DNA from: a virus
Lineage: Duplodnaviria; Caudoviricetes
Direction: 5' to 3' (one strand)
Length of the DNA: 58,190 nt
IMG/VR virus record: IMGVR_UViG_3300027861_000036
Span: 1 to 58,190 of that record
Numbering within the stretch: position 1 is the first letter of the stretch; each line of letters starts with the position of its first letter. The notes under the pieces were generated by a model. The model saw only the letters and a program-made list of their open reading frames with translations, was not told the origin of the DNA and made no database searches. The translations under genes and the position numbers were made by a program. This document shows, in pieces, positions 320 to 58,190 of the stretch.

Positions 320-385
320 GTTATATAGTTTTTAGACACGGTTAATAAAAATGTAAGGGATGTTTGTTACCTTACTTCAATAGCC

Positions 386-1163: not shown

Positions 1164-1179
1164 TTCCTCAGGCAAAGGA

Positions 1180-33900: not shown

Positions 33901-35681
33901 TTGGTGCAACATTAGCTGCGCAAAATAATGGTGAACCTTCTTGTCAATTATTTAATTCATTTGCTATAAACCCACTTGGGTTTGAAAATGAGAGATATAA
34001 CTTTCAATTTGGCAGCGGTGGTAATGAGTTTATGTCAAGTACAGAACCAAGTACAGGTTTAAACCCTGTTACACTTGCTCAAGCTATTGTAAATTGGATG
34101 TACAATGAATGGATTAGTACTAATAAACCACCTGATACTAAAAGAAGAGCTGATTATGGGCAAAGATATGCTGTTACTGATGTAATAAATTTAAGAGGGG
34201 CTAACTCACAAAAAGGAGATAGGAGTTTAGATCCTAACTATAAAGCTTATGTAATTCATGTTACATCAGTAGTAAATGATTGGTTTGCTCCACCAGGTTG
34301 TTCTCCGCAATGCCATGATAAGAGTCAAGTATGTTTAGCACCTTGGAGTTCTGGTGTACAGGGTTTAATTTTAATGCTTGGTTCTGTACCAACAGTTAAC
34401 GCTCTAGCAGCTGGTAATTGCGATCCTTTTACAGCGCAATTTCCAGAACCCTGGCTTGCACCATTAAATAATGGTAATCCAAATACTATTTGGGGAGTAC
34501 CTAATTGGCATCCGTCAGGCCCTGTGCATGACGCTGATATGGATGCAGCTGTTCAAGGAATGGTAAATTATATATCTATTGAATGCCCGTTTATACCAAT
34601 AGACCCAAGTCTTTGTGCATGTTATGAATTTATATTGACATCTACAGGTGATTCTGATACAACATTTGCCTTAGTAACCTGTGAAACAGGAGTCTTAGCA
34701 ACCCCTGTAGTTGTTCTAAACGGTGAATCTGTAACTATGAGTTGTGCTAGAAATGCTTATGCAACAGCAGGTACAGGTACAGTTACATATGTTAGTACAA
34801 CACCATGTGGAAGTTATAATTGTGAAGGAACTACAGGAACAGAAGCTGTTATTAACACATATGAAGCTATATGTAGAAAAATAGATTGTGGTTGTTTACC
34901 GGGGCCTACACCACAAACTGTAGTTGAACAAGTAGGTACTTGTGATATACCTAATTTAATATATGATATAGGATATCCATCTGTTTCATTACCTACAATA
35001 ACTTGTAATTATGATATCATATACGCAACACCACCAAGTAATGCAACAGGTGGTATATGGAGGCATAATTACAGATGTGATTTGTATGCTAACTATTATG
35101 GTGTTGATTACCCTTGGGAAATAGAGTTTGTAGAAACTACGGGGCAAATGGTAAATACTGTAAGAAGTTTAGAATACCAGTTAGAAGCTTTTGTATATAA
35201 AGGTAATTTAATAAATGGTTGTGGAGATGACAGATGGCATGATTTAGATTTCAACTTTGATGAATCTATAATTTATAATACTGAGCAGGTATCCGGGTTA
35301 CTAAGATTAGAACTAAACCCTAAAGAGGATCCTTTAGCTATGATACAATATCCCATTATAAGTAATACTGATATTAGAATCCTTTATTCTAAAGAAGAAC
35401 AAAAATACAGGTTCAATCAGTTTTGGGATGTTACTAAAGATAGAGGAGAGTTTTTTAATCAAACACTTGGTGTTTTTGTAGAAGAGCCAATATTCATAAC
35501 TCAGCTAAACGGATACATTAAAGATTTAAACTCAGTAAATCTTAATTATATAAAAGACAGTGACCAACGTAAAAAGTTTAGACACTACTATAACAAATTC
35601 CTTTTAAGAAGAAGGATATCTGGTAATAGGAAGATGCTATTAAAAATAAATAATGCTAAATTAAACTTATCCTTTAGATGA
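27966..35681 (+). CDS. Tail muzzle/stabilisation protein (P22 gp10-like) with a large Cys-rich insertion
   Basis: FTKGM.KD, NEPAN, FMRDEQYAFFI, WTVSYDP...WISFHDW and IWRHN motifs of crAss-like stabilisation proteins; 2571 aa. Confidence 0.75.
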   Translation: MAKKSKKTTNPNNTSSTEVNLFTKGMSKDVNASFQGKETWYHAINAYNNSVDGDVGVIGNEPANLECAKIPYTIIGAIHKQGDEWYIFSTDDVNSEIGLFNDSECAYTTIVNAPCLSFNRKYLITGASKENFDCTWQVYWDDNLNPSRTLNVDDIPWIQNDISTPGSPCKEYQDTIILDCEKIRLAPLVKTPCVKLTKAQDGGQIVNGSYQAFIAYALNGQKVTDYIGVSNIQSLFDHSEFAGSLNITIENLDQRFEEFELVILSNTKNQHVAKRIGLYSTAQTADPSQTSLLPKVISLDFIDPALISTPFPILFKKSPAYEKSEAMYVVNDWLLRQGPTEQFDFNYQPIANLIKTEWVVAQYPASYYFKGGNKTSFMRDEQYAFFIRWIYNTGERSASYHIPGRPPRTTTSFPTPGTNQFGEVINETDDAICPGNCFPTEMNFQAYNTATLITVNASIPVGDGGTIISTGDMGYWESTERYPATKPEIWDSTYINPNTGVNLANTTDTRYDLCGQPIRHHKMPTEELHSSLHLSTEDGQNIRILGVQFKNIIRPKYNDGSYIENIVGYEVLRGSREGAKSILAKGIFRNMREYTIPDAEDLIGDPVQGIYPNYPYNDLDDDQYFQDDRIKTIGCHGYTASIDVYKPLEGYRQDVFTFHSPELMFKRPFLSAHETRIYGTLHGQAEGQFVPSEKHPKNKLLRNGAIIIASIIGVGYAMQKIRGKVTKKSLPLQMNNQGLTWPHSGLGTRSGLIYETILGSGEMSDKGGGNILWGVAGDGYSPHMPGEQLPTSIAGLDNIAAMGAAEGAIQAVITAFLTGEEGGKFAAIGDGGETTTSLYESMNTSRLAAGVLPGTFGAGMQIDIEESEQMGGPVGFRNLTGFTAFLTHFMVGTDEIIELFYNLISLNNFAYKHNSHGQYTTFQRTLFSDDNYRRKNIDANYIGSSFQTFGETSSSSGLFKINNLFRPDTVAINTDGILTNPRVIDNSRYTLGELGDPYLEDPTLKVKRPISCLYGALKFDFENQYGQLEGVKQVQMRGCVEYVDSSNPDGFSYFTEPLFSGDVYINRYTEKTIMPIFTDFMYGQPDETIYDYIKRINIPYPRYWMNTEKYQIGKLIDGFLNGTLFATFSGGNTPDLIPEDLFYLDRHASSCGAFLVQQTLGTGTPTANNVDPNPIFAMRFAYMYTHVNGIQDFFVESELNIAQRDWEDIAAKRHYDPYLYTSIRDLFHADIIKDDNFYKYDSPLSASRFITNLQSYGNVQLRDYDPQVAETCFSFYPKRLIYSLQARKETRKDFWRVFLPNNFKDFKDKVNVIKPINKSGAIIFFPYRSPQMFQGLDTLRTDLGTKLTIGDGGLFSQPFQNLVNADLANEYGSCESARSVVNTPLGIFYLSQAQGKVFQYGRSLKNIANNGMKWWFNKYLPSILIREFPELAETELGDNPVVGVGCQSVYDTNNDIVYFMKKDYSVIDEYKTNIQFDIGNCQFYFYPDGCDTSTCRFPITLGDITYFNDASWTVSYDPKANAWISFHDWHPELVMPSINHFLTTKTEPADPTQHYCPPGYIYNPQTGDCESLVTETVPGFAILEDNIQTITISDCPPGYTLNQLTNICVGLTTNATVSPTTYLVAPIVSNPVFGIVGTRFYNGAFGTGPFISTTASTDLFDSNNNPVAFNLRPKGSISNDPWWRRLRDGGVWTTLVCPSLGGCPSTCGSLNCTNLPCCEWIGFITCVNITESKEYCFLIAADNAVRVFVDGNLFADLNFSANVTFQRMHVIPIFLTAGTHSITMEGFNNDQSGGFVGEIYNLTLQEAQDTNIIGSEFNLINYRLWSSRQEQQFNTGQFSGNTCPPGYSLVFSADCGELICVQIANPEVTCGCEPGYTIVYPELQLDNVTVYNVLDTGPCSIDVEISPAVPGTDPGPDPLPLPIAPSCPVDIVFVMQADDSTTDDFYGGLRQREVMIDFVQRFLVNPTIQAALNAGTLQFGATLAAQNNGEPSCQLFNSFAINPLGFENERYNFQFGSGGNEFMSSTEPSTGLNPVTLAQAIVNWMYNEWISTNKPPDTKRRADYGQRYAVTDVINLRGANSQKGDRSLDPNYKAYVIHVTSVVNDWFAPPGCSPQCHDKSQVCLAPWSSGVQGLILMLGSVPTVNALAAGNCDPFTAQFPEPWLAPLNNGNPNTIWGVPNWHPSGPVHDADMDAAVQGMVNYISIECPFIPIDPSLCACYEFILTSTGDSDTTFALVTCETGVLATPVVVLNGESVTMSCARNAYATAGTGTVTYVSTTPCGSYNCEGTTGTEAVINTYEAICRKIDCGCLPGPTPQTVVEQVGTCDIPNLIYDIGYPSVSLPTITCNYDIIYATPPSNATGGIWRHNYRCDLYANYYGVDYPWEIEFVETTGQMVNTVRSLEYQLEAFVYKGNLINGCGDDRWHDLDFNFDESIIYNTEQVSGLLRLELNPKEDPLAMIQYPIISNTDIRILYSKEEQKYRFNQFWDVTKDRGEFFNQTLGVFVEEPIFITQLNGYIKDLNSVNLNYIKDSDQRKKFRHYYNKFLLRRRISGNRKMLLKINNAKLNLSFR

Positions 35682-38600
35682 TGAAAAGAACTAACAGAAA
35701 AAAAGAGAGCAGAGGTTTACCAGGTGGACCACATGAACAGTTTACATATGTAACAGGTGTATTCTCACAGGATATGTATCATGTTCCTAAAGCTCAAAGT
35801 GGAATAGAGCAGCCTATTCTGTATGTAGATTCAGAAGATGATGAGAGGTATAAAAGTTATATAGACAGTTTGATACCTTTTAATGCTATGGTAAAACAAT
35901 ATAATATTGAAGGTAATGCAAGAGGTAAATCAGATTGGGAAAAAAAGACAGAACTTTATTCATCTATTAAAAACTTAGATGATTGGATGAATGCTGCTTT
36001 TGGTGGAAATCTAATGGCTAGAGATTATGATATGGGTGCTGATGATCCTACAGGTTATATTGAAGATGAATACAAAAAATTAAAAAGAAAATATCCAAAT
36101 GAACCTTTAAGATATGACTCTGAAATAGAAAGATGGACAACAAAAGATTTAAATTACAATAAAAACTATGATGAAGTTGGTGAAAATATAACACCAGAAT
36201 CTGAATTTTATAATGTCCCTTTAAATTTAAAAGATGCAATAAAAAAAGGTGAAGTAGATAAAGGTGATATAGAATTATTAAAATACTATGAGTCTTTAGG
36301 TATTCCAAACGAAAGAATAGGATATTATAATTCTCCTGACGTTTATTCTGATAAAGTAAAAGCAATAGGTAATTGGATGGGCAAAGCATGGAATCCTGTT
36401 TATCCAGAACCAAAAGTTCAGGTCAATGTTAAAGGTAAACAACCTTTAGAAAAACTTAAATTTAAAGAAATACCACAACCTGATTATAGAATACATGACT
36501 ATATGAAGATGGAAGGAATGGATCCTTCTCCAGAAAATAGAGACATGTGGGCTAAGATGCTTGGTATAAAAGATTATATAAGAACAGCAGAACAAAATGA
36601 AGAACTGATAAAGAGATTAAAAGAATACAAAAAGAATCCTATAAGAGCTCAATACGGAGGTAATATTTCTACAGAAGGTTATAAAAGAAATAGTAAAGAT
36701 GTAAATAACCCTTTTAATGTAATTATGGGTGACCCAAGTGGTACACCTATAACTATGGGAGGGGTAGACTTTGCTGTAAAGGGTGTAGACAACTTAGGTA
36801 ATGAAAAAATAATGTATCCAGGAGCAGAGTATCATTTCCCTGGTAGCATGGTTTATGAAACACCTTTTAGGAGAGCTCAAGAAGGTAATGGTGAAAAAGA
36901 AGTACAACAAATATATGATTTCAATGGTAGTAAATGGAAAATAAAAGATGGTGTTTATGAACAAGTATCTGATGACGCACCAGTAACAAATGCTCATACT
37001 ATTGATAGAAGCTCTGCTTATGCTAAAAATAAATCTGAAAGGCTTTTTAGAAATATAACACCTCAAGGCTATGGTGATCTTAAAACAAATTTAGAAAGAT
37101 ATAAAAGATATAAAGGTGATCTAGGCAGAGATAAAGAAGATGTTTTATGGCAGAGTGCAAAAGATTCTCCTACAGGAAAACCTATTTACTATAATCTTCC
37201 TAAGAGAGATGATATGTTTAGACTATATCTAGGTTTAAATCAAGAACATAATAGTTTTACTCCTCAATTAGATTATAAACCATCAAAAGCAAAAAATCCA
37301 GATGCTTTATATTGGAAGCCTAACTATTGGGATGATGAAATGAAACAGTATCTTCTTGATTATTCTCTTAATCCGATAGGGTTAAGAGATAATAAACTTG
37401 TATATGATAATAAAATTTTTAATGAAAGAAGTGATGTGTTTCTTCCTAAGTTAGAAAGTTTAGAAGCAGAAGGTATGGATTGGTCAGACCCTCAAACAGC
37501 TGAATGGGTTGCAGATAATCCATTGGGAGATTTTACTGTAACTAAAGGTGAAGATGATCATGGAAAATACATATCTATTTATGATAAAATAGATTTTAAC
37601 CCTTTTCAAACAGGAGATGGCTCATCTACTAATGCAGCAGGCAAAGCATTACAACTTTATATGAAATCTCAAGGTTATGACGTTGACGAGAATACTGAAG
37701 CCGCATCTTTATTAGGGGCTGGTAAACCCTATGAAATTTATGATAGAATCTATTATGATGATAAGACTGGTAAAATTATTAAATCACCGTTAATTAATAA
37801 ACAAAAAGGTGGCAGTAATATTCAAACACCTTTGAGGGGTGCCCAACAAGGAATAGAAGTACCAACCAAAAATCAAATAGCTAATGATCCTGAATTAATG
37901 AATTGGGATAACTATAATACACCGCTTACTAAGAAGGAACAAAAAGAATTTAAAAAATGGATGAAAGAAGCAAATATTCATCCCTGGGACAGAGGAGCTT
38001 ATGATATACAAGGGTATTGGAAAGAACAAGTTAAAGGTAAAGGTTTTGATAGTGTAGATGATGATGGGCATAGACCAGATACATATAAAAAACCAAATCA
38101 TCCTACATTTTCTATGCAATCTAAATATGCAGATCATCCAGGTGTTGAAGCAGGTTTTTGGGATGGCCCTGATTATTATGCACCATCCACACATAGAAAC
38201 TTATATGGATTAGATTATTATGACTGGATGAATTCAAGAGAGCCTGATAGACCTGAAAAGCTTGCGGGTTATATGGAGAAGCCTATTATTGTTACACCAA
38301 AACAACAAGGTGGTAGTAATATTCAAACACCTTTAAGGAGAGCTCAACTAGGAATAGAAGGTGCTAGTACTTATAACATTGGTTACAGACCTAAGTATCC
38401 TTTAAATGCTTCAGAAAGTACAAGGGTAGAACCAATTGCAATACCTACAACTGCAAATCTAAATTCATATGCGGATTTTATGAGTAGTAAAAGATTTCAT
38501 AAAGATTGGATGAGCTCTCCCATGCATATGCAAATGCTTAAAAAAAGTGCACCAGATAATTATTTAGATATTTTAAAAACAAGACTTCAAAATATTAATA

Positions 38601-41600
38601 ATGCAACTATACGTGATAGATTTATAGAAGGTGATCAATATATACCAGGTTCACTTTTTTCTGGCAGCCCTGCTGGCGGTTATGCTCAAGGGTTAAATTA
38701 TGTTAATCAATCCCCTTTATATAAATCCATAGAGCGAAGAAATATGCCCCACATGAGACAATATAATGAATTTTTTTTGGATTTACCCACGCATGAATTA
38801 TCTCATATACAAGATTATAAAAATTCTTATTTAGGTAAATTTAAGACATTATTTGGGGGTGATCAATATGATTATCAATTTACAAATCTTCCAAAATCAG
38901 ATGTTTCTTTTATAAGAAATTTAAAAATAAAAGATAATAAATTAACTAAAGAATCAGAAGAATATTATTCTGATCCAACCGAAGTAAGGGCTAGGTTAAA
39001 TGAAATTAGACACTCTGCAATAAGAAATAAACAATGGGATCCGTTTAATGAAAAAATGACACTTAAAAAGTTAAAATGGTTAAATCTTGATATTATGAAG
39101 CCTGGTGGTTTAGATGATTTACAACAAATTTATAGCGATGAACAGATAATAGATTTATTAAATACTGTTTCACAAACAGATGATGATCAAATTTACAATA
39201 ATGAAAATAGAACTAGCTATGCACAATCTGGTGGTGAATTTCAAAAGTTAGTTAACAAATACACAACACAAGGTTGGTCTTCTCTCAATCCTCAAGAACA
39301 GCAGTTCTACAGAGAGACTTATCAGAGAGGTGGTTCAATACCTCAATATCAAAGGGGAGTGGAGACTGAAGATGAACGAATAACAAGAGAAGGAAATGCT
39401 GACTGGATGAGGGGTTGGATGGAAGCACAACCTATAGAAAGGAGAGATTCAGCATGGGCTCAAGAAGGATGGAGAGAATGGGAAAGCCACATGAATCTCA
39501 GGGAAATAGAAGAGAGGGAGGCGGAAATAGAGAGAGAAAAGAATAATTCTTGGGGTAGTAAATATCCTTATAATAAAATCAAAGAAGGATATGATTGGTT
39601 AAAAGATAAGTTCCCAATGCCTTTTCAAGAAGGTGGTGATTTACCAAGCTATCAAATACAGGGAGAAACAGATGTTGAACGTGCTGACCGTATAAATTTA
39701 CTTCAATACAACTTTGATGAACGAGAGTTTGATTATATAAGGAATGAACTAGAAAGTGGTAGATGGAATGAACTTTCACCTAAAGAACAAGAGTTTTATA
39801 GAAAGAACCAGCCTGTTATGCGTCCTGTACAGAATAAATTTGGCATGGAAGGGATGAAAATAGTGCAGGGTAGTGGTGATGATTTAGAATGGATACCTAA
39901 TATATATAAAGGTGTAATACCAACTATTAATGTTACAGCTTCACGCCCAGATGATGTAAATCCTGTTATAAATGCTATGCGTACAGGAAGAGATAATTTA
40001 CAAAATGAAATAGGGAAAGCAGTAGAAGAAGGAACTCCTTGGGGTGCAATGAAAAGAATGTATAAACACGGTCCTAAACATTATTATGATGCAACAAATG
40101 TAGCTTTAAGAGATGCAGTTACTTTAAATAAAGTACCACATTTTGGTGAATGGGCTAAACTGTTAGATGTTGCAGAAGTAGCTCCGGTAGGAGGGCTTGT
40201 TACTCAAGGGTTAAAAGCCCCTATTAAATCAGGCACTAAAGCAATAGCCAAACAAGTAAAACAAATTCCTTCTACTATAAAAGGACTACCCAAAGAACTA
40301 AAAAATTTAGATACTAAAGCTGGGGATTATTATTTTGGAAAATATGCTCGTATGAGGGATATAGAAACAAATGCAAATAAATATTTAAAGGAAGGTTTAG
40401 GTATAAAAAAAGGAAGTATAAAAGATAATGACTTAGCTATAAAATATAATCATAAAAACCGTGATTTTCAGATTACAGTTAAAGGGGTAGGAACAGAAAA
40501 GGATAGAATCACCGGTTATATAAAACTTGGGGATAAAGAATGGAAAAAACCACCTTCTTTTTTTGGAAGCATATTTGGTAAAAAACCAACTTTTAGTTCA
40601 CAAATATCAAAAGAACTGGATTTCCCATATTCTAAAGCATCAGAGTTAGAGGGTACAGGTTTAGGAGCTGAGGTAGTAGCCGCTATGAATAAAGCAATTA
40701 AAGATAAAGCAGGTACTTTATATAGTTCTAAGTCACATTTTGATGACGGAATAACCAGATATTTACAAGAGTATTTAAAGGAAAGGGTATTGCCTGGTGA
40801 AAACTTTACTAAATCTACTCAGTTTTTTTTAGATGATTTAAAAAAAGCAGTGGGAAATGATTATTCTAAAAATGCAATAAGAAAGTTTCAGGAGTTGCCA
40901 GAAAATCAATGGATTATTAAATCATATATAGACAAGTTAAGATGGCAATATAAAATGGCAGGGGGTGAGTTAGGAATAGAAACGTTAACTTCTGATAAAG
41001 AACAAGAGTATCAATCTGGTGGTTCTACAAGTTCTTTATGGGAAACAAAAACTGGTTTACCTTGGAGTGAAGCTAAAGCAAGAGGTTTATCTGACGGTAC
41101 ATATAGTTCTAATGTAGCGTTAAGAAAAAAACTTTTAAATGATGAAATAAATTTCCCTAGTACACCTGTGGTAAATGATATACAGCCTATAATAACTCCA
41201 CAAGCAACTCCACAAGTAACTCCGGAAGTACAAGAAGATGTAAACTTTGATCATCTTACATTTGATGAAGCATTTGGAAAAGCCAGAGAGATGTATGGGC
41301 CTAATAAAATATTTAAATATAAAGGACATTTAAAAAATACTAATAGATCTGGTGAACCATTTGAACCTTCAGAAGAAGAGCTTACTAAGTGGGGGATGGG
41401 TACTAAAAAAACAAAGGAGAAGATAAAGAAAGTTAATGAAGATATAGTTAGTCCATATACAGTTGATGATAGATTAGAAATAGAAGATGTTTTTGAACCT
41501 AGTAGAGAATGGGAAAAAGAAGCAATGAAAAGATTGCAAAAAGAAGTAGAAAGTGGTGAACCCGGTATGCATGAGAAAAAAACATGGGAGTATCAAAAGA

Positions 41601-43444: not shown

Positions 43445-43463
43445 AAATTATTACTTTCCCTTT

Positions 43464-43478
43464 TAATTTTGTATATTA
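43464..43478 (+). promoter_or_regulatory. Putative promoter
   Basis: TAATTTTG (TAnnTTTG) then TATATTA in the 58-nt gap before 43503. Confidence 0.4.
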
Positions 43479-43502
43479 AGTATATAACCATACATAAAAA
43501 AT

Positions 43503-46500: not shown

Positions 46501-48788
46501 CTAAGGGTGCTGCTAAAGATATCAGTAAGGAATTTACTGAAGAATTTGTAAATGCTGATGAAATAGCAGAGATGAAAGCAATGCTTAAAAGTATGAACGA
46601 TGATCCAGCTTTTAAAGAATTGTCTGAAGCAACTGATCTGGAAGGCATGTCAAAAGCGGTTAAAAATATGAGCCAAAGAGATGTTGATGCCCTTGAAAAA
46701 TCAATGGATGATTGGGTAAAAAAAACAGATGCTGATGAAATAATACCTCAAGAACTGGAGAACCAACAATATTGGATAGAAAAAGCAGGGAAATCCTTCC
46801 CAAATGCAAGGAGAAGTGAAGATTATGAAAATTTGGGTATGTTTGACCATTTTGAAGATTGGCTAAGAAAAAAAGGACAGGTTCATCAAGCAAAAAAATC
46901 AGGTAAAAAAAGAATAAAACAAGAAAGGAAACTTTTAGAAGATGAGGGTTATCCTAAAGGAATGACAGATGATCAAGTATGGCATGCAATAGAGAGAAAA
47001 AGGCTGGATTATTTGCAATTGGGTAGGATAAGAGATGATGTTCGTGGAAACATAGGAAAAGGGGGGAGACAGAAATGGGAAATAGATCCAGATCACAAAC
47101 AATGGTGGGAGAAAAGTGTAGTAGAACAAGAACAAGATGTTTGGGATGAAGCACACAAGAGATGGCGGTCACCCTATGATCCTCAAACGGGAAAAATGAA
47201 AGTTGATTGGCAGGTTAATAGTTTAGATAGAGATTTGTTGAAGGGTTCTACTGAAGATTTTGAGGAATTAATGGATTATATGAAAAACTTTAAAAAAACC
47301 GGTGGTATGATACGTAAAACACAAAATAGAAATTTAGATAAATATCAAGGTATTACAAGAAGTGAAGTGGGTAAAAAAAAGAAAGATCCACGTTTGTATA
47401 ACTGGTCAAATCTGGAAGATAAACAAGCACATTACGAACATTGGCCAAATGTATTTGCACAGGAAGAGGAGAGAAGGCAAAGCAGATTATTAAATGATCC
47501 AGAGTTTAGATTTACTGAAGGTCAGGATTTAGGTATAGACTATAGACTTGATAACCCTAATGAAAGATATGGTGATAGAGCAAATGCAAATTTTATGGCA
47601 TTCTATAACCAACAAGGTAACCGTATGTTTAGAGAAAAAGCTATACCTAATGCAGAGATGTTAAGGGAGTTTGTGCAAAAAGCTGGCAGTGATGCTGGTA
47701 CACCTGAAAGTATGGCAAGACAACGTGCATGGTTAAATCAAAATTATCCAAATTTAGATGCTAGAAATACTAGATTCTTAAGACAACAAAGGGGTGGTGG
47801 TCTACCAAGTTATCAGATAGAAGGAGAAATACCAAATCAAAAAACTATGGATTATCTAGCTGGTAAATATAATCAAACTGCTACAGATGGTATATATAGA
47901 GATTTTGATAAAATTGAGAAACCTAATATAAAGGAGTTATTTCGCAGGTATAATGAAATGTATGTAGAAAAAGAAGGAATGCCATTTACTACTATAGGAA
48001 CGGCACCGATTACAGCTAAAGATGCTGCATTGACGGGTAACTATGCACAGTATATGAGAGAAAATCCAAACATACCTGTTCAAACAATACATACTCAAAA
48101 TAGTACTATACCGCCAGCTTTGCAAAGACAAAGGGGTGGTGGTGATAAATATAGAACAAGAAATATACCACCTATATCTCTTATATATGAGCATATGTAT
48201 AAAAATGATCCTAAACCTAGCAGTAATTGGCTACAACATATAAAAGATAGTTACCCTAAAGGAGGGTATAGAGGTTCGCAAGATTTCCCACCTTATCTTA
48301 CAGAATTTTATGCAGATGCGGAAGCCTTTAAACCAAAAAGAGGAGGTTTTGTAGATGAGTGGGGAGAACCTTTACCAGATAATTGGGAAAGAAGATGGCC
48401 GGGTAGAAGGCGTGAAGATGCATTTTGGAATGTTCATTCTAAAAATGATTCTATGGGTGATGCTCCTTTTGACCCTTTAAAACCAAGGAAAGGACAAGAA
48501 GATAAATGGGAACAACTTAAAGAAAAAGTAAGATTTAATCATAGAAATGATGAGACATGGATGGACTATAGTGATCCAAGTATTACTCGTCCAAAAGGTT
48601 ACAAAAAAGGTGGTAACATAGATTATGGAAACTACATGCCTGTAGATATGTATGGTCATCAAAATGCTTTTAGTACATTTAGAAGACCTGTATATCAATA
48701 TGGTGGACAACCAACAAACATAGTAGAAGTTGATGATAGAATGATTCAAAAATTAATTGCAGCTGGTGCTGACATAGAATACTTATAA
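43503..48788 (+). CDS. Giant modular cargo protein with a poly-Gln N-terminus and Q-x-GG linkers
   Basis: 1761 aa; about 14 linker motifs; beta-barrel-like segment at 44991-45197. Confidence 0.7.
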   Translation: MKKINKKSLKQQGGQSVNPQQQQMMQQQQQQQQQQGQQQQQDPTAELAASFSEMVDSGYEPKQVIMQFIEYEVPEELIYQTLLRVGYSEDDVQALFTQVSEEVQQTSNEQRSMMQPQQQMSQAQRGVESEPHPLDDRGQSYDQGNNEGYWPTPKKEPRWSIPINKAPFNSDKDRKTWIQAQKNLRRMEAIEKEILAEENIRRAQYGKEHQYNIKQDEGIVNNYGARVRNWMSQIDPSAGYNRGDTLSKGLKLAQTLGDTFKPKYSFSRGMNPFSKKDKDGDGFADGWFMDSKKKNLLKKNLRQRDKKIRKLQGRSIKIHENDPNKYRFNSMGDFITTQQYDDDVKKYSTAQFVSPTNSYKGYAYDSDPTPYMTPQQKKDYWQHKQEFGTVGDFWKDPVTGKSKKPKKQKKSKWHYMDFMKGYKYGGDLDRYQVLGETPLPLDLKNDLAGTFLPPLDDNFEAWNLDEWQKRKNSYKNKALSIALPIKPEAGMRGFFEGFDIKGSGNIGDRLNLRGGFGSNFNAQDPKIKYNAGITYQANPSISLSADMGGNQKGISNYKFGLKWKHPKKSTKNHVYKYQAGTETPLSPLEPITFKDWYRKNLYRNSGIPPSELNALYEKETGYDANSPAVDVDGTKPWTSPEFMPPKITDPNKSKRTWNQIGNVVGKVGEIGYQAADFVNEAAKAWQDLAKPVHTADDLYDITQNPAGGQGYWDVNSGYLQQPEKTLEGYGWAQRGGSLPRFQALGSVNQNTLNPDIYGQRILGNTPIDYRDPKLAAMLSAMQAQKKGVSRGVTGISNTPKKLPRSFVPASESTSTQGPIILTDQELKNKNWRENVLPTLSAERQQQFNDYEAQKKKDNSTFASRLMEAPGVFLDNTFGTSADPNVVAPTVLPTDPRFYDQVFQGMNMATTIPAYINSYADYISGKREDPQDWRGIFPSGIQEKLGKKDGEQNNIINSLRNDPDFCKKYPLRCAAEEMGLGFWGLPGRLGKKVTGKLAKGSKGAAKDISKEFTEEFVNADEIAEMKAMLKSMNDDPAFKELSEATDLEGMSKAVKNMSQRDVDALEKSMDDWVKKTDADEIIPQELENQQYWIEKAGKSFPNARRSEDYENLGMFDHFEDWLRKKGQVHQAKKSGKKRIKQERKLLEDEGYPKGMTDDQVWHAIERKRLDYLQLGRIRDDVRGNIGKGGRQKWEIDPDHKQWWEKSVVEQEQDVWDEAHKRWRSPYDPQTGKMKVDWQVNSLDRDLLKGSTEDFEELMDYMKNFKKTGGMIRKTQNRNLDKYQGITRSEVGKKKKDPRLYNWSNLEDKQAHYEHWPNVFAQEEERRQSRLLNDPEFRFTEGQDLGIDYRLDNPNERYGDRANANFMAFYNQQGNRMFREKAIPNAEMLREFVQKAGSDAGTPESMARQRAWLNQNYPNLDARNTRFLRQQRGGGLPSYQIEGEIPNQKTMDYLAGKYNQTATDGIYRDFDKIEKPNIKELFRRYNEMYVEKEGMPFTTIGTAPITAKDAALTGNYAQYMRENPNIPVQTIHTQNSTIPPALQRQRGGGDKYRTRNIPPISLIYEHMYKNDPKPSSNWLQHIKDSYPKGGYRGSQDFPPYLTEFYADAEAFKPKRGGFVDEWGEPLPDNWERRWPGRRREDAFWNVHSKNDSMGDAPFDPLKPRKGQEDKWEQLKEKVRFNHRNDETWMDYSDPSITRPKGYKKGGNIDYGNYMPVDMYGHQNAFSTFRRPVYQYGGQPTNIVEVDDRMIQKLIAAGADIEYL

Positions 48789-48790
48789 TT

Positions 48791-51634
48791 ATGAAAAAGA
48801 TAAAAGTAAATTCATTACCTGAAGGTTTTAAAGTCATAAACGGCAGAATTGTTGAAGCTAAAAAACACGGTGGTAATACTACTGGTGACCAATCTCAATT
48901 TGGTTTAGTAACAACTGGTACTAATTCTTCAGAAAATATAGATGAAACATCTGTTAGGTATAGTCTAATGCGTGTACCTAAAGATGAAGCAAACATAGAA
49001 GCTGAAGGAGGAGAAACTGTTCTTACAGATCTTAATGGTGATGGCAAGTTTGGTCTTTATGATATTAGAGGTCCAAGGCACAATAAAGGTGGTGTCCCTT
49101 TAAACTTACCCCCACAATCTTTTGTCTTTTCAGATTTTAATAAACTTCTCTTTAATAAGAAGGAAATGGCAGAGTTTGGTCTTGAGACTAAAAAAAGATT
49201 AACCCCTGCTAAAATATCTAAGAAGTACGGGCTTAATGAATATCATGGTAAAATCAATGATGATTATGCAGATGATATTCAAGTGACAAGTGCTGAATTA
49301 ATGTTAGCTAAAAACGGAGGACAATTATCTAAATTAGCTTTTATGCAAGAAGCTAAGAAGAATTTTTCTGATGGTGTCCCTGTATCATCACATCCTTATT
49401 TAATTTCTATAGGTGAAGACCCTATAGAGTTTACAGCAAAGATTGAAGAGATTTCAAGACAGCAGGCTCAACAACAAATTATAGAAGGTCTTCCACCAGA
49501 ACAACAAATGCAGATAGCTCAGTTACAGCAGTATATGCAACAAGTAGATCAGCAGCAGCAAGGACAGCAACAAGGACCTCAAGACCAAGGTATGCAGATG
49601 CCTCCTGAGATGCAACAGATGCAAGGTATGCAACAAGGAATGCCTCCTCAAGGTCAGGGTATGATGCCTCCACCTCCTGATATGAATCCTCAACAGATGG
49701 CACAAATGGGTTATGAGATGCAAGATATGGGAGAGTATAATCCATATGATATGCCTATGGCTCAACAAGGAGGAGGTGGGTTCTGGGATATATTAAAAGA
49801 GGCAGGTACAGGTGTTTATGACGAAATGCAAAAACAAGAAGAAGAAAGAAGAAAGAATGCAAAAATAAAAGACCAAGAAGAGAGGATAAAGAGATTAATT
49901 CAAAGATTGGACAATGAAGGTATTTTACCAGATGCGGTAAGAAATAATCCTGAATTATTATTAAATAGAGATATAAGAGAGGCGTTACGAGCTGCATCTG
50001 AAAGTTTAAATGACCTTGATCAGTATGATCCACCACTAACAGTGGAAGAAGTTGCATCTAATGTTAATGATCTAGTAAATCAACAAGCACAAGAATTACC
50101 TAATTATACAACACAAAGTACAACGCAAACTACAACACCAGGCCCAGATCCTGATGATCCAAAAAAGAAAAAGAAAAAGAAAAGGAATGGTAAAAAAACA
50201 GAAAGAGCATATGATCCAGATATAGATGATGAAGGTTTTCATAGAGCTGAAGATGTAAAGGTAGGTGAGGAATACTATCAGCCAGTTCAACGTCAAGGTC
50301 CTGAAGGATATGGTGGTGCCAGTAAAAATGTAACAGGTTATGAAGAAGGATGGGAGAAAAAATATGATAAGTATGAAGAATTAATGGAAGCTATTGAAAA
50401 AGTAGATGGACAAGGGGAAATAAAAGAAGTACGTGACTTTCAATTATGGCATAATAATGAGTATATTCCTAATACAGTTAAGGAGTATGGAGAGCAAATG
50501 AAAGCTGCAGGTAAATCTTGGACAACAGCAGATGAAACTTATTGGGTAAATAAACTTCTTAAAGAGCATGGTTTTGATTCTACCAAAGATGGTAGACATT
50601 TAGATGGTAAATGGGGTACATTTACATCTTCAAGAAGACCTTTTCAATTTGACCCTATTACAAACGAACCTGTTAAACAACCTGAAACACCAGTTGAACC
50701 AGTTGAACCAAAAGTTAAAAAACCATTAGAAGTACCGGATTATGCATCTACTTATAGACCTCCTGTATGGGCTCCTTGGATGCAAGACTTAATATTAGAG
50801 GATGCTATTGCAGATACAAGAATTAATAAATATGGACCTTGGCAACCACCTGTTCAGAAACCTGAATTAGATTATGTGTTAGAAGATCCTACAAGAGGTA
50901 TAGCAGCTCAAAATGAACAATTTAATATAATGGCTCAAGGAATGGGTGCTATTATGGGATCTCAACAATATGCTGCAAACATGGCAGAACAACAAGGAAA
51001 AAATGCTGCAAATTTAGCTAACTGGATTGGTTCTGTAAATAACAGGAATGTTAGCACTATAAATAAAACCTTTGGTCAACAAGCTAAATATGATTGGATG
51101 GCTAACCAAGAACAAGACAGAAGGAGCGTTGCAGTTCATGATGGATGGAATAAAACAAATGAGCTTTATGACCAACAGATAAATGCCAGAAATAAAGCTG
51201 CTGCAGAACAAAGGGTTAATACAATAACAAATGCTGCAAACACCTTTAATTTAAATACTATAAATCCTTATTATGCCATAGACCCTAGAACAGGAGGTAT
51301 AATAAATCAGATTAATAGTAAAGCCTGGGATTATGCTGAACAACCAACAACTCAAAGTCTTGCAGTAAGAACGGGTCAATTTGTTAGGGATTATGAAGCA
51401 GAGAATCCTGGAAAAACACCTTCAGATAAAATGATAGAAACATGGATGAAGAATCAGTATCCTCAACAACAAACAACTCAAGAAACAAACATGCAAAGGT
51501 GGTATAATAATCAACCTTCAGGAGGTTTTGATAGTAGAAGAGGATATTCACAAGCAGGTGGTCAATATATGCAAGAAGGGGGAGAAGTAAAACCTATAAT
51601 TGTTCCATTTTTTATAGGTGCTACAGGAATATAA
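48791..51634 (+). CDS. Putative cargo/internal virion protein with an EAEGGE-H-FSD N-domain and a Q/M/P-rich region
   Basis: ANIEAEGGETVL, GPRHNKGGV and FVFSD; DGKWG.FT PG-binding-like motif; ends with tandem SQAGG and MQEGG motifs. Confidence 0.65.
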   Translation: MKKIKVNSLPEGFKVINGRIVEAKKHGGNTTGDQSQFGLVTTGTNSSENIDETSVRYSLMRVPKDEANIEAEGGETVLTDLNGDGKFGLYDIRGPRHNKGGVPLNLPPQSFVFSDFNKLLFNKKEMAEFGLETKKRLTPAKISKKYGLNEYHGKINDDYADDIQVTSAELMLAKNGGQLSKLAFMQEAKKNFSDGVPVSSHPYLISIGEDPIEFTAKIEEISRQQAQQQIIEGLPPEQQMQIAQLQQYMQQVDQQQQGQQQGPQDQGMQMPPEMQQMQGMQQGMPPQGQGMMPPPPDMNPQQMAQMGYEMQDMGEYNPYDMPMAQQGGGGFWDILKEAGTGVYDEMQKQEEERRKNAKIKDQEERIKRLIQRLDNEGILPDAVRNNPELLLNRDIREALRAASESLNDLDQYDPPLTVEEVASNVNDLVNQQAQELPNYTTQSTTQTTTPGPDPDDPKKKKKKKRNGKKTERAYDPDIDDEGFHRAEDVKVGEEYYQPVQRQGPEGYGGASKNVTGYEEGWEKKYDKYEELMEAIEKVDGQGEIKEVRDFQLWHNNEYIPNTVKEYGEQMKAAGKSWTTADETYWVNKLLKEHGFDSTKDGRHLDGKWGTFTSSRRPFQFDPITNEPVKQPETPVEPVEPKVKKPLEVPDYASTYRPPVWAPWMQDLILEDAIADTRINKYGPWQPPVQKPELDYVLEDPTRGIAAQNEQFNIMAQGMGAIMGSQQYAANMAEQQGKNAANLANWIGSVNNRNVSTINKTFGQQAKYDWMANQEQDRRSVAVHDGWNKTNELYDQQINARNKAAAEQRVNTITNAANTFNLNTINPYYAIDPRTGGIINQINSKAWDYAEQPTTQSLAVRTGQFVRDYEAENPGKTPSDKMIETWMKNQYPQQQTTQETNMQRWYNNQPSGGFDSRRGYSQAGGQYMQEGGEVKPIIVPFFIGATGI

Positions 51635-57900: not shown

Positions 57901-58190
57901 AACAATTAGAAGTGTTTATTAAAACAGGTGATGTAAATGCAATTACTAAATATTATAGTGAAGATGGGAAAGTAACAGAAGGTAATTTTATTATAGAGGT
58001 GCTTAAACGTTCATATACAGAAGCAACAAAACCTGAAGCACTTAAAGTAGAAACTGAGGCTGGGGAAGATGAAGGTGATTTTGTTGAAACAACTAAAGAT
58101 ACATCTGATTTACTTGATGAATATAATTTAGAGCAAAGCCCTCCTATAAAAATATATAATACAACAAATATAGAATCACCATTTATAGCT
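54921..58190 (+). CDS. Giant cargo protein with membrane-channel-like hydrophobic helices; 3' end truncated by the window
   Basis: ATG at 54921 (MGYPETPL) and the last codons are in the same frame (1090 codons); GYTIGIIGSIAAEELALAGATALTGGG, ANVGEGIQELAQEAI and FMSGFLMGGIV; absent from the ORF track, consistent with having no stop in the window. Confidence 0.8.
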   Translation, partial: MGYPETPLIPTNSTFTYENVDDLITTPDMSELARTLDPEYMGMIDSLVPIINPYSIPSVGNLNQPTPTRATLTYDPLKQQTPPDYSTEEGKRRGIQDLFNNIDKASKDTSVFDQKDPVRSNIAATNFERYYHHPNFKKLGWQPYRDNESYYNANSTFTDDLGRMWGQLQNLTTTGFVSAYRSWGDMFDNDAYFTGKDLDSAREFSDAMRIGNSTREGIGHFANNILLQSGYTIGIIGSIAAEELALAGATALTGGGFAPIAGVKTGANVEKVVRATGNLFGIKKAWNGSKAMLQSFNNVDKSRAFYHTLKATPGALAKGLKHVVAPETMYAWKRLGTTKNVTQNLSNFLKSSSTYGAFYRDIRGLNYALSESKMEGGMVYDQVMANGYAIKSAENNGGALTDEQMKAVVEGANNAGYYTTLTNAPVIYITNQLTLGNAFGAYRKSLSRLIGDGIKGLPKGIAKGKTFIKGKAAKDVFVNVGDGFKGYLKRIKTVGFGKAGVSASLRYFSANVGEGIQELAQEAIAHGTEHYWQAIIKDPAAQNYDVWKTSISSAMGSQFSAQGFETFMSGFLMGGIVQGPQKILFQGIPGLKNHIFNREQTATYKKGRKATIDGLVDTFNKQWNRGVVNDLNLLIDPSKVNLVAQKNASDNKKQDALNQSQYDFMDAELDSRFQNAVTIIDNGSMHLFEEQMQDYLKLTNEELAEAFPSFKDDIENGKLKSKIQKQLTFLKQLKKSDTSLKDLYPSPVDLSQFKEGTKEHLDAVLEDMAWKHARNLALFTRTDFKNTLERMNSIFETLQNDPVFEGMAANDITVVLSKKGLAKELLFLKQEIDLLDDSAENKEQKKNKTIKYTELSKISDILYGEKNQKDGEFDSAKIDKFYSRFRLYIKKLAGINQFQKKVFEDESAIQEVLIKVIDHIKLGERADAYARSIEYLNNPESFKEIADRQAVYFKELHKNLKTHFEDNVKDSIKNDEINQFLNALAQQGVYVDPEQLEVFIKTGDVNAITKYYSEDGKVTEGNFIIEVLKRSYTEATKPEALKVETEAGEDEGDFVETTKDTSDLLDEYNLEQSPPIKIYNTTNIESPFIA

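What the first reader, a model, noticed from the sequence alone, without database searches (positions are those of the whole stretch)
35678..51634. Three giant cargo ORFs punctuated by about 35 Q-x-G(G) linkers: a candidate virion effector polyprotein system
Seen: a motif [AYFKMQR]-[QK]-x-G(G), with a few looser variants, recurs between compositionally unrelated blocks. In ORF 35678: AQSG 35792, AQYGG 36647, AQEG 36875, KQKGG 37799, AQQG 37841, KQQGG 38300, AQLG 38342, AQSGG 39221, YQRGG 39320, YQRG 39347, FQEGG 39623, YQIQG 39650, KMAGG 40952, YQSGG 41009, KQKGG 43268. In ORF 43503: KQQGG 43530, AQRG 43869, AQYG 44109, YKYGG 44766, YQAG 45231, AQRGG 45696, KKTGG 47292, QQRGG 47784, RQRGG 48126, YKKGG 48600, YQYGG 48693, plus three YQ/FQ companions. 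In ORF 48791: KKHGG 48860, AKNGG 49307, AQMG 49700, AQQGG 49760, SQAGG 51548, MQEGG 51569. Every recognisable catalytic domain lies between motifs and none is cut by one. I did not notice the motif recurring in the capsid or tail proteins. Known: crAss-like phages eject large cargo proteins, and Gly-Gly sites mark cleavage in viral precursors (adenovirus protease (M/I/L)xGG-x, ASFV pp220/pp62 GG-x). Inference: the motif is a maturation-protease site that frees many small effectors from one packaged precursor, or a repeated capsid-loading/ejection tag.
Basis: partly seen in the sequence, partly recalled or inferred. Interest (0 to 1): 0.9.

Follow-up and report, generated by a model that had tools for sequence, protein, structure and literature searches.

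The report
Conserved junction motif in phage cargo proteins
Three large internal-virion genes of a marine crAss-like phage are strings of swappable protein modules joined by a short conserved glycine-containing peptide, which is real and widespread; whether it is a cutting site is not shown.

Summary
All 32 listed coordinates are correct. [AYFKMQR][QK]xGG occurs 22 times in the three ORFs against 1.9 expected, and twice in the other 20 ORFs. The loose four-residue form is about half chance, and at least one listed site (AKNGG 49307) is a chance match inside a helix.

The motif is longer than reported: [YFA]-[QK]-x-G-G-[ES]-L-P-K-A-Q-x-G-x-E, with either half able to stand alone. In orthologues the second Gly is often dispensable.

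It lies in low-confidence (probably disordered) linkers between modules. 68% of local-homology ends fall within 15 residues of a motif, against a null of 22-25%. Module gains and losses between close relatives have their junctions at the motif (6 of 7 indels). The junction DNA forms dispersed direct repeats.

The motif is enriched 5-8 fold in 149 distant homologues and is present in cultured Cellulophaga phage phi17:2. It is not enriched in crAss001 cargo proteins.

No protease of six families tested was found. The one zincin-like module is absent from five relatives.

Best reading: a conserved hinge and recombination junction of a cassette-type, hypervariable internal virion protein family. 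Cleavage (about 35%) and a docking tag (about 25%) remain open.

The parts
35678..43444 (+). ORF1, 2588 aa. Layout: N-terminal leader, then modules A-E, small helical modules, YkuD, and a C-terminal module, with junction motifs between them.
43503..48788 (+). ORF2, 1761 aa. The N-terminal leader with KQQGG and the C-terminal peptide are conserved. The interior is hypervariable.
48791..51634 (+). ORF3, 947 aa. The N-terminal domain (1175 homologues) and the C-terminal part are conserved. The middle is variable and begins after the tandem junction motifs.
35678..35791 (+). ORF1 N-terminal leader (RGLPGGPHE...), ending at the junction AQSGIE (35792).
   Evidence: A leader GLPxG[PA]N is present in the first 40 aa of 36 of 149 homologues. 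It is conserved in relatives G001 and G004.
36647..36886 (+). Module B (about 70 aa), bounded by AQYGG (36647) and AQEG (36875). It is the conserved N-proximal module of ORF1-type proteins.
   Evidence: 60 near-full hits, 50 of 60 with a motif within 45 aa downstream. Also found at the N-terminus of phi17:2 gp041.
37799..37858 (+). Composite junction KQKGGSNIQTPLRGAQQGIE, upstream of module D.
   Evidence: repeat D7, 61 nt, 89% identical to the copy at 38300; KQKGG at pLDDT below 50; AQQG at the domain edge
37859..38293 (+). Module D (about 145 aa, KKPNHPTFS signature). Function unknown. It is the most widely shuffled module.
   Evidence: 65 near-full hits at varied positions in other proteins. 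pLDDT above 90. No Pfam or Atlas assignment.
38300..38359 (+). Composite junction KQQGGSNIQTPLRRAQLGIE, downstream of module D.
   Evidence: pLDDT below 50
38360..39223 (+). Module E, a zincin-like domain with HELSH at aa 1039 and an invariant Glu at aa 1095.
   Evidence: HE[LIF]SHxxD in most full-length homologues and E1095 in 41 of 41. No Pfam hit at E<=1. Absent from 5 relatives.
39221..39364 (+). AQSGG, then a 30-aa helical hairpin, then the composite YQRGGSIPQYQRGVE.
   Evidence: both motifs at pLDDT below 50; hairpin at 81-89
39623..39667 (+). Composite junction FQEGGDLPSYQIQGE.
   Evidence: repeat families D2 and D4; pLDDT below 50
40952..41023 (+). KMAGGELGIE ... YQSGG junction pair.
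41678..42142 (+). YkuD (L,D-transpeptidase fold) domain. SHGCIR is present in the translation.
   Evidence: Pfam PF03734, E 1e-6, above the cut-off. Sequence.
43268..43441 (+). KQKGG plus the conserved C-terminal module of ORF1.
   Evidence: 42-48% identical in G001, G003 and G004. 19-20 homologues cover it.
43530..43544 (+). KQQGG in the ORF2 N-terminal leader (MKKINKKSLKQQGG).
   Evidence: The same position carries the motif in the G001, G003 and G004 orthologues and in P0153.
43869..44126 (+). AQRGVE and AQYGKE, flanking a module that is replaced by a different module in P0153.
44766..45248 (+). YKYGGDLDRYQVLGE ... YQAGTE, flanking a module of about 140 aa that is absent from P0153.
   Evidence: DNA repeat families D2 and D4
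45696..45737 (+). Composite junction AQRGGSLPRFQALG.
   Evidence: D4; conserved in P0153
47784..48614 (+). QQRGG(GLPSYQIEGE) ... YKKGG, flanking about 270 aa that are absent from P0153. The junction is exactly at GG.
48693..48785 (+). YQYGG plus the conserved C-terminal peptide of ORF2 (NIVEVDDRMIQKLIAAGADIEYL).
   Evidence: Conserved in G001, G003, G004 and P0153, and recognisable in the cyanophage Lbo-JY46.
48860..48874 (+). KKHGG in ORF3.
   Evidence: G27 and G28 are kept in 120 of 120 orthologues. The site lies in a segment with pLDDT below 50.
49700..49777 (+). Tandem junction AQMGYE ... AQQGGG, at the border between the conserved N-domain and the variable middle of ORF3.
   Evidence: A304 in 110, G307 in 114, E309 in 107, Q325 in 106, G327 in 94, and E or D at 329 in 94, each of 120. 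pLDDT is low or borderline.
51569..51631 (+). MQEGGE plus the conserved extreme C-terminus of ORF3.
   Evidence: G930 in 113, E932 in 106, and P939, F940 and G943 in 117, each of 120. Position 931 is K in 88 and G in 12.
49307..49321 (+). It is a chance match, not a junction.
   Evidence: GG is kept in 2 of 120 orthologues. The site is inside helix 162-189 with pLDDT above 90.

Best explanation
The motif is the conserved junction peptide of a cassette-built family of hypervariable internal (probably ejected) virion proteins. The family belongs to a widespread environmental clade of distant crAss-like phages.

Each ORF has conserved ends: an N-terminal leader and a C-terminal module or peptide. 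The interior is made of independently folding modules of 30-300 aa.

Between modules lies a probably disordered stretch that carries [YFA]-[QK]-x-G-G and/or [AYF]-Q-x-G-x-E. The full form is YQxGG-[ES]-LPKAQxGxE.

The junctions do two things.
- As protein, they act as hinges that keep modules autonomous. The chain can then be stored and threaded through the tail piece by piece.
- As DNA, they form dispersed direct repeats at which in-frame recombination inserts, deletes, duplicates or swaps whole modules. This lets the payload diversify quickly while capsid and portal stay nearly constant.

Shown here: the enrichment; the position in low-confidence linkers; the coincidence with module boundaries; indel junctions at the motif; the DNA repeats; conservation at orthologous sites; and occurrence in many distant homologues.

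Inferred: that the proteins are packaged and ejected; the hinge role; and recombination as the cause of the indels.

The peptide is conserved at protein level even near chain ends, and after single-module proteins. I therefore think it also has a recognition role, either processing or docking. These are listed as rivals, but neither excludes this explanation.
For: Enrichment:
- 22 strict matches against 1.89 expected, with 0 of 2000 shuffles reaching that count.
- In 149 cluster representatives: 381 against 49.0.
- In the 87,442 residues of those proteins that do not align to the window proteins: 152 against 27.5.

Module boundaries:
- 237 local alignments from 149 proteins. 68.1% of their ends lie within 15 aa of a listed motif.
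- The null means are 21.9% and 25.0%. 13 of 5000 circular shifts and 0 of 5000 random placements reach the observed value.
- Share of near-full hits with a motif within 45 aa (upstream / downstream): module B 9/60 and 50/60; C 9/17 and 7/17; D 40/65 and 45/65; E 13/22 and 20/22.

Structure:
- AlphaFold2 of ORF1 aa 700-1340 (44-row alignment): 8 of 9 listed motifs lie in or overlap segments with pLDDT below 50, between domains with pLDDT above 85. One lies at a domain edge.
- ORF3 aa 1-340 (54 rows): 2 of 4 are clearly low, 1 is borderline, and 1 is inside a helix.

Indels:
- P0002 against P0153: three module differences, each bounded by motif copies. One junction is exactly at QRGG|/KKGG|.
- P0008 lacks modules C and E, with the junction TPKQEGG|EFQKL.
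- P0004 lacks module A, between AQSG and AQYGG.

DNA:
- 61-nt repeats at 89% identity flank module D.
- A 28-nt repeat in 3 copies (82-89%) sits at the B/C, C/D and D/E junctions.
- 49-nt and 30-nt repeat families (71-80%) link ORF1 and ORF2 junctions.
- Gly codon GGT makes up 32 of 43 in motif GG against 202 of 377 elsewhere, p=0.009.

Constant frame, variable payload:
- Portal is 75-84% identical in the best 80 of at least 600 related loci. MCP is 80-91% identical in 33 loci.
- ORF2 has one similar-length homologue in the 5.8-billion-cluster library.
- ORF2 reaches at best 29% identity over part of its length in 2 of 5 relatives' genomes.

Orthologous conservation: see the ORF3 sites above.
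Against: - One of seven indels does not fit. P0004's 1717-aa deletion (aa 704-2420) has its left end 5 aa before KQKGG and its right end inside a module, away from any motif.
- Low pLDDT may partly reflect thin alignment columns rather than true disorder.
- Junction DNA copies are only 71-89% identical. Efficient homologous recombination between them is therefore not assured.
- The codon bias is modest and could reflect translational preference.
- Motif density varies among close relatives. For the union pattern: window 46 against 8.8 expected; G003 19 against 7.7; G001 16 against 6.3; G004 5 against 4.8, that is, no enrichment.
- A pure hinge would not need a 17-residue consensus. Nor would it need to sit 10-30 aa from chain ends, or after stand-alone single-module proteins. 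The hinge-plus-recombination account is therefore probably incomplete.
- Virion location rests on gene order, and on the annotation of phi17:2 gp041 as 'virion structural protein'. It does not rest on data for this phage.
Confidence: 0.7

Rival explanations
1. Processing sites. A phage or host endopeptidase cuts after G-G or after G-x-E in the exposed junctions, either inside the capsid or after ejection. This frees the modules as separate small proteins. It is compatible with the junction and cassette picture.
For: - The sites are exposed and mostly conserved on the N-terminal side: position -3 Y/F, position -2 Q/K.
- They are often doubled, with a start-to-start spacing of 8 residues in 44 pairs.
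- They occur 10-30 aa from chain ends, like pro-peptides.
- They occur after stand-alone single-module proteins.
- The modules carry unrelated activities: YkuD and a zincin-like domain.
- The core G-x-E resembles the cutting sites of T4 gp21 and phiKZ gp175 for internal head proteins. x-G-G resembles adenain, ASFV and ubiquitin-like sites. Both comparisons are recalled, not tested.
- Processing of phage 'polyvalent' proteins by embedded zincin peptidases has been proposed (PMC5512222, passages).
Against: - No candidate enzyme was found. Pfam C48, C5, C39, S78, S77 and S49 give 0 of 5 genomes each, two of them complete.
- No protease family was found in the head-module ORFs.
- The zincin-like module is absent from 5 relatives.
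- The consensus also extends about 12 residues to the C-terminal side (L-P-K-A-Q-x-G-x-E). That is long for a cutting site.
- Some 'modules' would be 30-aa peptides.
- Other proteins of the phage do not avoid the motif: 1 observed against 1.5 expected in the window. The test has low power.
- Three crAss papers were checked for the word stems of cleavage, proteolysis and protease: two had none bearing on virion proteins, and the third is the proposal cited above.
Confidence: 0.35
2. Docking or tether motif. The junction peptide is a short linear motif that binds a conserved partner without being cut. The partner could be the capsid interior, portal, scaffold or tail channel, or a host envelope protein. 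The binding would load the payload into the procapsid or ratchet it out during ejection.
For: - What stays constant in otherwise unalignable proteins is the termini and this peptide, while MCP and portal are 75-91% identical.
- The consensus is long and bipartite, with conserved Leu, Pro and Lys, which is typical of binding motifs.
- It occurs at chain ends and after single-module proteins.
- It occurs in phages of different host phyla: Cellulophaga phage phi17:2 and, weakly, Leptolyngbya phage Lbo-JY46. This argues for a phage-side partner.
- GG-[SD]-L resembles encapsulin cargo-loading peptides. This is recalled only.
Against: - No partner is identified.
- Nothing positive supports binding.
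- G004 carries few motifs although its capsid genes are equally conserved.
- crAss001 cargo proteins lack the motif.
Confidence: 0.25
3. Chance or compositional artefact of Q-, G- and K-rich low-complexity sequence.
For: - The loose four-residue pattern is expected 24 times by chance.
- ORF2 and ORF3 contain poly-Q tracts that generate QQQG matches.
- At least one listed site is a chance match.
Against: - Shuffles that keep composition never reach the observed strict count.
- The motif is conserved at orthologous positions in 120 proteins.
- It coincides with module boundaries.
- It is enriched in non-homologous parts of 149 other proteins.
Confidence: 0.02

Closest known systems
Polyvalent proteins of phages and conjugative elements (Iyer et al. 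2017, PMC5512222; passages read)
   Same: - Very large multi-domain proteins thought to be packaged and delivered with the DNA.
- They combine cell-wall-active and peptidase domains.
- There is extensive domain shuffling.
- Processing by embedded zincin-like peptidases has been proposed.
   Different: - That paper's main text has 0 occurrences of 'linker', 'glycine' or 'crAss', so no conserved junction peptide is described there.
- None of the window's modules reaches a Pfam LPD or MPTase family at E<=1. There is only a weak Atlas lead to LPD23 for module E, score 0.90.
Cargo proteins C1/C2 (gp45, gp46) of Bacteroides phage crAss001 (PMC10172136; passages)
   Same: - The gene position is the same: after the giant tail-associated protein and before giant ORFs.
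- The tail ring protein family is shared (Pfam CrAss_Ring_2, E 2.6e-20).
- Both are presumed to be stored in the capsid and tail barrel and ejected partly unfolded.
   Different: - No sequence similarity at E<=1e-3.
- No motif enrichment in gp45-gp50 (strict 1 against 0.64 expected in gp45, 0 in the other four).
- Portal identity is only 23%.
Glycine-rich motifs (GRMs) of T-even gp38 adhesins (PMC3157838; abstract and passages)
   Same: Conserved Gly-rich motifs separate hypervariable segments. Genetic exchanges occur within or near the conserved motifs.
   Different: GRMs form the folded core of one small domain and separate loops. Here the motifs sit in linkers and separate whole domains in proteins of 900-2600 aa.
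Gly-Gly and G/A/S-x-Glu processing of viral precursors: adenain, ASFV pS273R, ubiquitin-like proteases, T4 gp21, phiKZ gp175 (recalled, not read here)
   Same: Short sites with small residues at P2 and P1, or Glu at P1, at boundaries of internal virion proteins.
   Different: No matching protease family was found. Cleavage is untested. The second Gly is not conserved at orthologous sites.
Pre-toxin boundary motifs of polymorphic toxins, such as VENN in CdiA and PxxxxDPxGL in Rhs (recalled)
   Same: A short conserved motif marks the point at which variable modules are exchanged.
   Different: Those systems have one boundary per protein and one variable tip. Here there are many boundaries per protein and many modules.

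Membership tests
Viral Gly-Gly polyprotein processing system (adenain / ASFV pS273R / Ulp-like, clan CE) | Recurrent x-G-G sites at boundaries of mature products | tested here: met
   22 strict sites against 1.9 expected. The sites lie at module boundaries. But the second Gly is dispensable at orthologous sites.
Viral Gly-Gly polyprotein processing system (adenain / ASFV pS273R / Ulp-like, clan CE) | A cognate clan CE cysteine protease encoded by the virus | tested here: not met
   Pfam Peptidase_C48 and Peptidase_C5 give 0 of 5 genomes each, two of them complete. Other clan CE families were not tested.
Viral Gly-Gly polyprotein processing system (adenain / ASFV pS273R / Ulp-like, clan CE) | Cleavage products observed in particles | not testable with these tools
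   There are no proteomic data for this phage. Supplementary files of papers were closed.
Head-protease substrates of T4 / phiKZ type (x-Glu sites in internal head proteins) | Prohead protease of the assemblin-like, S77, S78 or S49 families in the head gene module | tested here: not met
   Pfam S77, S78 and S49 give 0 of 5 genomes each. No protease family was found in ORFs between portal and tail genes. The phiKZ gp175-type family was not tested.
Polyvalent proteins (Iyer et al. 2017) | Two or more unrelated effector or enzyme domains in one polypeptide of a phage or plasmid | tested here: met
   ORF1 holds a YkuD domain and a zincin-like HExxH+E module, along with at least five further independently shuffled modules.
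Polyvalent proteins (Iyer et al. 2017) | Membership of the described LPD or MPTase domain families | tested here: inconclusive
   No Pfam hit at E<=1 for modules A-E. There is a weak Atlas lead to LPD23 for module E, 0.90.
Polyvalent proteins (Iyer et al. 2017) | Packaged in the virion and delivered to the host | not testable with these tools
   Only indirect evidence: gene order, and the record's label 'virion structural protein' for phi17:2 gp041, which shares module B.
Crassvirales cargo proteins C1/C2 | Homology to crAss001 gp45 or gp46 | tested here: not met
   tblastn found no match at E<=1e-3.
Crassvirales cargo proteins C1/C2 | Gene position between tail and muzzle genes and giant downstream ORFs, in a crAss-type virion module | tested here: met
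   Terminase, portal, MCP, CrAss_Ring_2, a 2571-aa structural protein, then the three ORFs, then large ORFs. The same order holds in G001, G003 and G004.

The most novel reading that the evidence does not exclude
The junction peptides are true processing sites, cut after G-G or G-x-E by a protease of a family not yet recognised, from the phage or the host. The three genes would then encode virion-packaged polyproteins. Each particle would deliver dozens of separate small effectors, and the repertoire would be reshuffled by recombination at the very sequences that encode the cutting sites. This would be a polyprotein strategy in a tailed phage comparable to that of eukaryotic viruses.
Probability: 0.3. 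Interest if true: 0.85.

Novelty: new variant of a known kind. Interest (0 to 1): 0.62.

Why it matters
Internal and ejected virion proteins are the least understood part of crAss-like and other podovirus particles. Here an abundant environmental clade shows a simple grammar for them: a fixed leader, then a variable number of modules each ending in one conserved junction peptide, then a fixed tail. The clade has at least 600 portal relatives in IMG/VR. The library holds 2882 related clusters for part of ORF1 and 1175 homologues (of 520-1658 aa) for the ORF3 N-domain.

This grammar explains how these genes can be unalignable between phages whose capsids are 80-91% identical. It gives a rule for cutting such giant ORFs into units for structure and function work. 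It also offers a defined peptide whose role can be tested in a cultured phage, Cellulophaga phage phi17:2 or phi4:1. The roles to test are cutting site, docking tag or hinge.

If the junctions tolerate module exchange, as the natural variants suggest, they may also be a natural scaffold for loading foreign protein modules into phage particles.

Tried and rejected
- Complex prediction of the major capsid protein (14-row alignment A2) with ORF1 aa 1300-1342, which holds FQEGGDLPSYQIQGE, gave no verdict: score 0.00, controls not run. It is not used as evidence either way.
- Foldseek against the PDB gave no match at E<=0.001, either for the ORF1 700-1340 model or for the ORF3 1-340 model.
- phmmer of the three whole proteins against PDB sequences gave nothing below E 0.29.
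- ESM Atlas gave no usable hit for module D and only unnamed clusters plus a weak LPD23 lead for module E.
- tblastn of ORF1 against 50,697 phage records gave no match at 1e-5.
- The search for related loci with ORF2 in IMG/VR found 484 pattern matches, none confirmed.
- The zincin-like module as the general processing enzyme is rejected. It is absent from 5 relatives, and several homologues have a degenerate HExxH.
- Avoidance of the motif in other phage proteins, as a footprint of a protease, was not significant: 0-2 observed against 0.7-2.2 expected per genome.
- Other ideas were considered and dropped. Bacteriocin-type double-glycine leaders: no C39 family, and Q/K instead of a hydrophobic residue at the fourth position before the cut. 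Autoproteolysis at GG-Ser/Thr/Cys: the residue after GG is not restricted to nucleophiles. Transglutaminase-type Q/K cross-linking: it would block ejection, and nothing supports it.

Full report
**What the window is.** The window is a whole virus record of 58,190 bases, estimated about 49% complete. All large ORFs lie on the + strand. It encodes, in order:
- terminase large subunit (6485-8671), portal (8671-11427) and major capsid protein (13930-15546);
- a crAss-type tail ring protein (26404-27075; Pfam CrAss_Ring_2, E 2.6e-20);
- a 2571-aa virion structural protein (27966-35681);
- the three ORFs of the finding, followed by further large ORFs.

The portal is 23% identical to gut crAss-like phages, 26% to Cellulophaga phage phi17:2 and 32% to Leptolyngbya phage Lbo-JY46. 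So this is a distant crAss-like phage. At least 600 loci in IMG/VR encode a related portal; the 80 best kept are 75-84% identical.

**Check of the observation.**
- Against 2000 residue shuffles of the three ORFs:
  - [AYFKMQR][QK]xGG: 22 observed against a mean of 1.89 (maximum 9).
  - QxGG: 17 against 2.10.
  - The loose four-residue form: 53 against 24.4, so about half of the loose matches are chance.
- The other 20 ORFs of 150 aa or more hold two strict matches.
- AKNGG (49307) is a chance match. Its GG is kept in 2 of 120 orthologues, and it lies in a confident helix.
- SQAGG (51548) is not conserved.
- An unlisted strict match, MKPGG, lies inside a folded module.

**What the motif really looks like.** Many sites are bipartite: YQRGGSIPQYQRGVE, FQEGGDLPSYQIQGE, YKYGGDLDRYQVLGE, QQRGGGLPSYQIEGE, and KQKGGSNIQTPLRGAQQGIE (twice).
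- In 148 distant homologues, residues around GG are biased. Position -3 favours Y/F, -2 Q/K, +2 E/S, +3 L/I/V, +7 Q and +8 G.
- 210 instances of [AYF]QxG[^G] show the extended consensus G-G-[ES]-L-P-K-A-Q-x-G-x-E-[IV]-P.
- The spacing from the start of [QK]xGG to the start of the second half is most often 8 residues, in 44 cases.
- At orthologous sites in 120 ORF3 relatives, the second Gly is often replaced. For example, position 931 is K in 88 and G in 12.

The conserved core is therefore closer to [QKR]-x-G-x-E than to x-G-G.

**Position relative to modules.** A search of 1.84 billion representatives with ORF1 aa 300-1499 found 2882 proteins at E<=0.001.
- The matches are local. They define modules B (aa 325-400), C (403-705), D (728-872), E (895-1180) and smaller ones.
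- These modules occur at quite different positions in other proteins. Module D, for example, is found at residues 22-151, 1330-1458 or 2813-2950 of its carriers.
- Of the ends of 237 local alignments, 68.1% lie within 15 residues of a listed motif.
- The null means are 21.9% (circular shifts; 13 of 5000 reach the observed value) and 25.0% (random positions; 0 of 5000).
- In the carriers the modules are again followed by the motif. Module D is typically followed by P-x-P-L-x-Y-[QK]-x-G-G. Counts per module are given under Best explanation.
- Complete-looking single-module proteins still carry the motif after the module.

**Structure predictions.**
- ORF1 aa 700-1340 (44-row alignment, mean pLDDT 63). 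Module D and part of module E are confident. All segments with pLDDT below 50 correspond to the stretches between modules. 8 of 9 listed motifs fall in or overlap them, and AQQG (aa 722) sits at the edge of module D.
- ORF3 aa 1-340 (54 rows, mean pLDDT 70):
  - KKHGG and AQQGG fall in low-confidence stretches.
  - AQMG is borderline.
  - AKNGG lies in a helix.

Low pLDDT is not proof of disorder, but it agrees with the homology boundaries.

**Gain and loss of modules at the motif.**
- ORF2 has one similar-length homologue, P0153. The two differ by three module-sized changes:
  - One module between AQRGVE and AQYGKE is replaced.
  - About 140 aa between YQVLGET and YQAGTET is present only in the window.
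  - About 270 aa is present only in the window, with the junction exactly at QRGG|...KKGG|NIDYG.
- P0008 lacks modules C and E, with junctions inside the motif (TPKQEGG|EFQKL). P0004 lacks module A, between AQSG and AQYGG.
- One further deletion in P0004 (aa 704-2420) has only one end near a motif. That makes 6 of 7.
- The DNA encoding the junctions forms direct repeats:
  - 61 nt at 89% identity on both sides of module D;
  - a 28-nt repeat at three successive junctions;
  - 30-49-nt families at 71-80% identity shared by ORF1 and ORF2.
- GGT is over-used for the motif glycines: 32 of 43 against 202 of 377, p=0.009.

**Spread of the motif.**
- In the 149 representatives:
  - The strict motif occurs 381 times against 49.0 expected.
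  - In parts not alignable to the window proteins it occurs 152 times against 27.5 expected.
- For the union pattern in syntenic ORFs of three relatives (portal 76-82% identical): G003 19 against 7.7, G001 16 against 6.3, G004 5 against 4.8. Other ORFs are at or below expectation.
- Positions are conserved at the ORF2 N-terminus, the ORF3 N-terminus and the ORF1 C-terminus.
- The cultured Cellulophaga phage phi17:2 has the motif in gp041 and gp042. gp041 shares module B and is labelled 'virion structural protein' in its record.
- The cyanophage Lbo-JY46 has two FQxGG sites in a syntenic 674-aa protein, together with the ORF2-type C-terminal peptide.
- crAss001 gp45-gp50 show no enrichment and no similarity.

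**Constant frame, variable payload.** MCP is 80-91% identical in 33 related loci, and portal is 75-84% identical. ORF2, by contrast, has no confirmed relative in IMG/VR by pattern search. In 2 of 5 related genomes its best matches are 29% and 27% identical over a part of its length. Each of the three ORFs keeps its ends and varies its interior.

**The cleavage question.**
- No protease that would explain cutting was found.
  - Pfam C48, C5, C39, S78, S77 and S49 give 0 of 5 genomes each.
  - No protease family matched the head and tail ORFs.
- Module E is zincin-like. It has HE[LIF]SHxxD in most full-length homologues, an invariant Glu 56 residues downstream (41 of 41), and degenerate copies in several homologues.
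- Module E is absent from five relatives, so it cannot be the general enzyme.
- Other phage proteins do not measurably avoid the motif.
- The crAss001 structure paper and a Crassvirales review contain no passage on cleavage, proteolysis or proteases of virion proteins. I saw only term look-ups in these, not whole texts.
- The polyvalent-protein paper proposes zincin-mediated processing but does not mention linkers or glycine.
- A library search for crAss-like + 'cargo proteins' + proteolytic returned 0 papers.

These few searches do not show that the motif is unpublished. Supplementary tables of virion mass spectrometry could not be opened.

**Verdict.** The motif is the junction peptide of a cassette-built, hypervariable family of internal virion proteins. 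The best-supported mechanism is a flexible hinge whose coding sequence also serves as a recombination junction. The closest analogy is the glycine-rich motifs of T-even gp38 adhesins, where exchanges occur at the conserved motifs (PMC3157838).

The peptide is conserved at protein level even near chain ends. A recognition role is therefore likely in addition. I put cleavage at about 35% and non-cleaved docking at about 25%. The question is directly testable in Cellulophaga phage phi17:2 or phi4:1.

Noticed in passing
window 35678-35791: ORF1 begins with a conserved leader (..RGLPGGPHEQFTYVTGV..). A GLPxG[PA]N leader is present in the first 40 residues of 36 of 149 distant homologues and in relatives G001 and G004. 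It may be the anchoring or first-out end of the protein.
   Followed up: partly
window 48708-48785; L094 14534-16558 (- strand): ORF2 ends in a conserved peptide (NIVEVDDRMIQKLIAAGADIEYL). It is kept in G001, G003, G004 and P0153, although the rest of the protein is unalignable. It is recognisable in the cyanophage Lbo-JY46 (..EEIDLSPEEVAKLIELGYDFEVV).
   Followed up: partly
window 51596-51631: The extreme C-terminus of ORF3 (..VPFFIGATGI) is conserved as V-P-F-[YF]-x-G-x-x-G in 113-117 of 120 orthologues. It is a short hydrophobic tail of unknown role.
   Followed up: partly
window 43559-43628 and about 49463-49690: A poly-Gln tract lies after the ORF2 leader, and a Q/M/P-rich low-complexity stretch of about 75 aa lies before the ORF3 tandem junction. 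CAA/CAG repeats link the two (families D1, D3 and D6).
   Followed up: no
window 38360-39223: The zincin-like module E has active-looking and degenerate copies among homologues. Some proteins carry two copies, one of each kind.
   Followed up: partly
protein P0004 (97% identical to ORF1 aa 326-703): A close variant of ORF1 of only 577 aa lacks aa 704-2420, with 'KS' microhomology at the joint, and also lacks module A. This could be a natural deletion, a defective variant or an assembly chimera.
   Followed up: no
window 1-2000 and 2653-3567: The first 2 kb has a higher G+C (0.413 against about 0.30-0.37 elsewhere) and a - strand ORF. ORF 2653-3567 matches endolysin and amidase families.
   Followed up: no
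window 54921-58190: The last ORF runs off the end of the record. The syntenic ORFs of relatives are 4505 and 5447 aa and carry the motif only at background level.
   Followed up: no
window 11424-12138: Two small overlapping ORFs (117 and 144 aa) with hydrophobic N-termini lie between the portal and a 418-aa acidic, probably helical, scaffold-like ORF. None matches a family.
   Followed up: no
L094 34787-37231 (- strand), Leptolyngbya phage Lbo-JY46: An 814-aa protein next to the annotated tail fibre repeats W-G-V-Y-Q-x-G-[ST/N] three times. This is a different, folded-repeat-like context for a YQxG string.
   Followed up: no
homologues P0004-P0152: A further short motif, GGWL[DN]xY, occurs 29 times in 18 of 149 proteins, often near junctions or chain ends. 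It is absent from the window's three ORFs.
   Followed up: no
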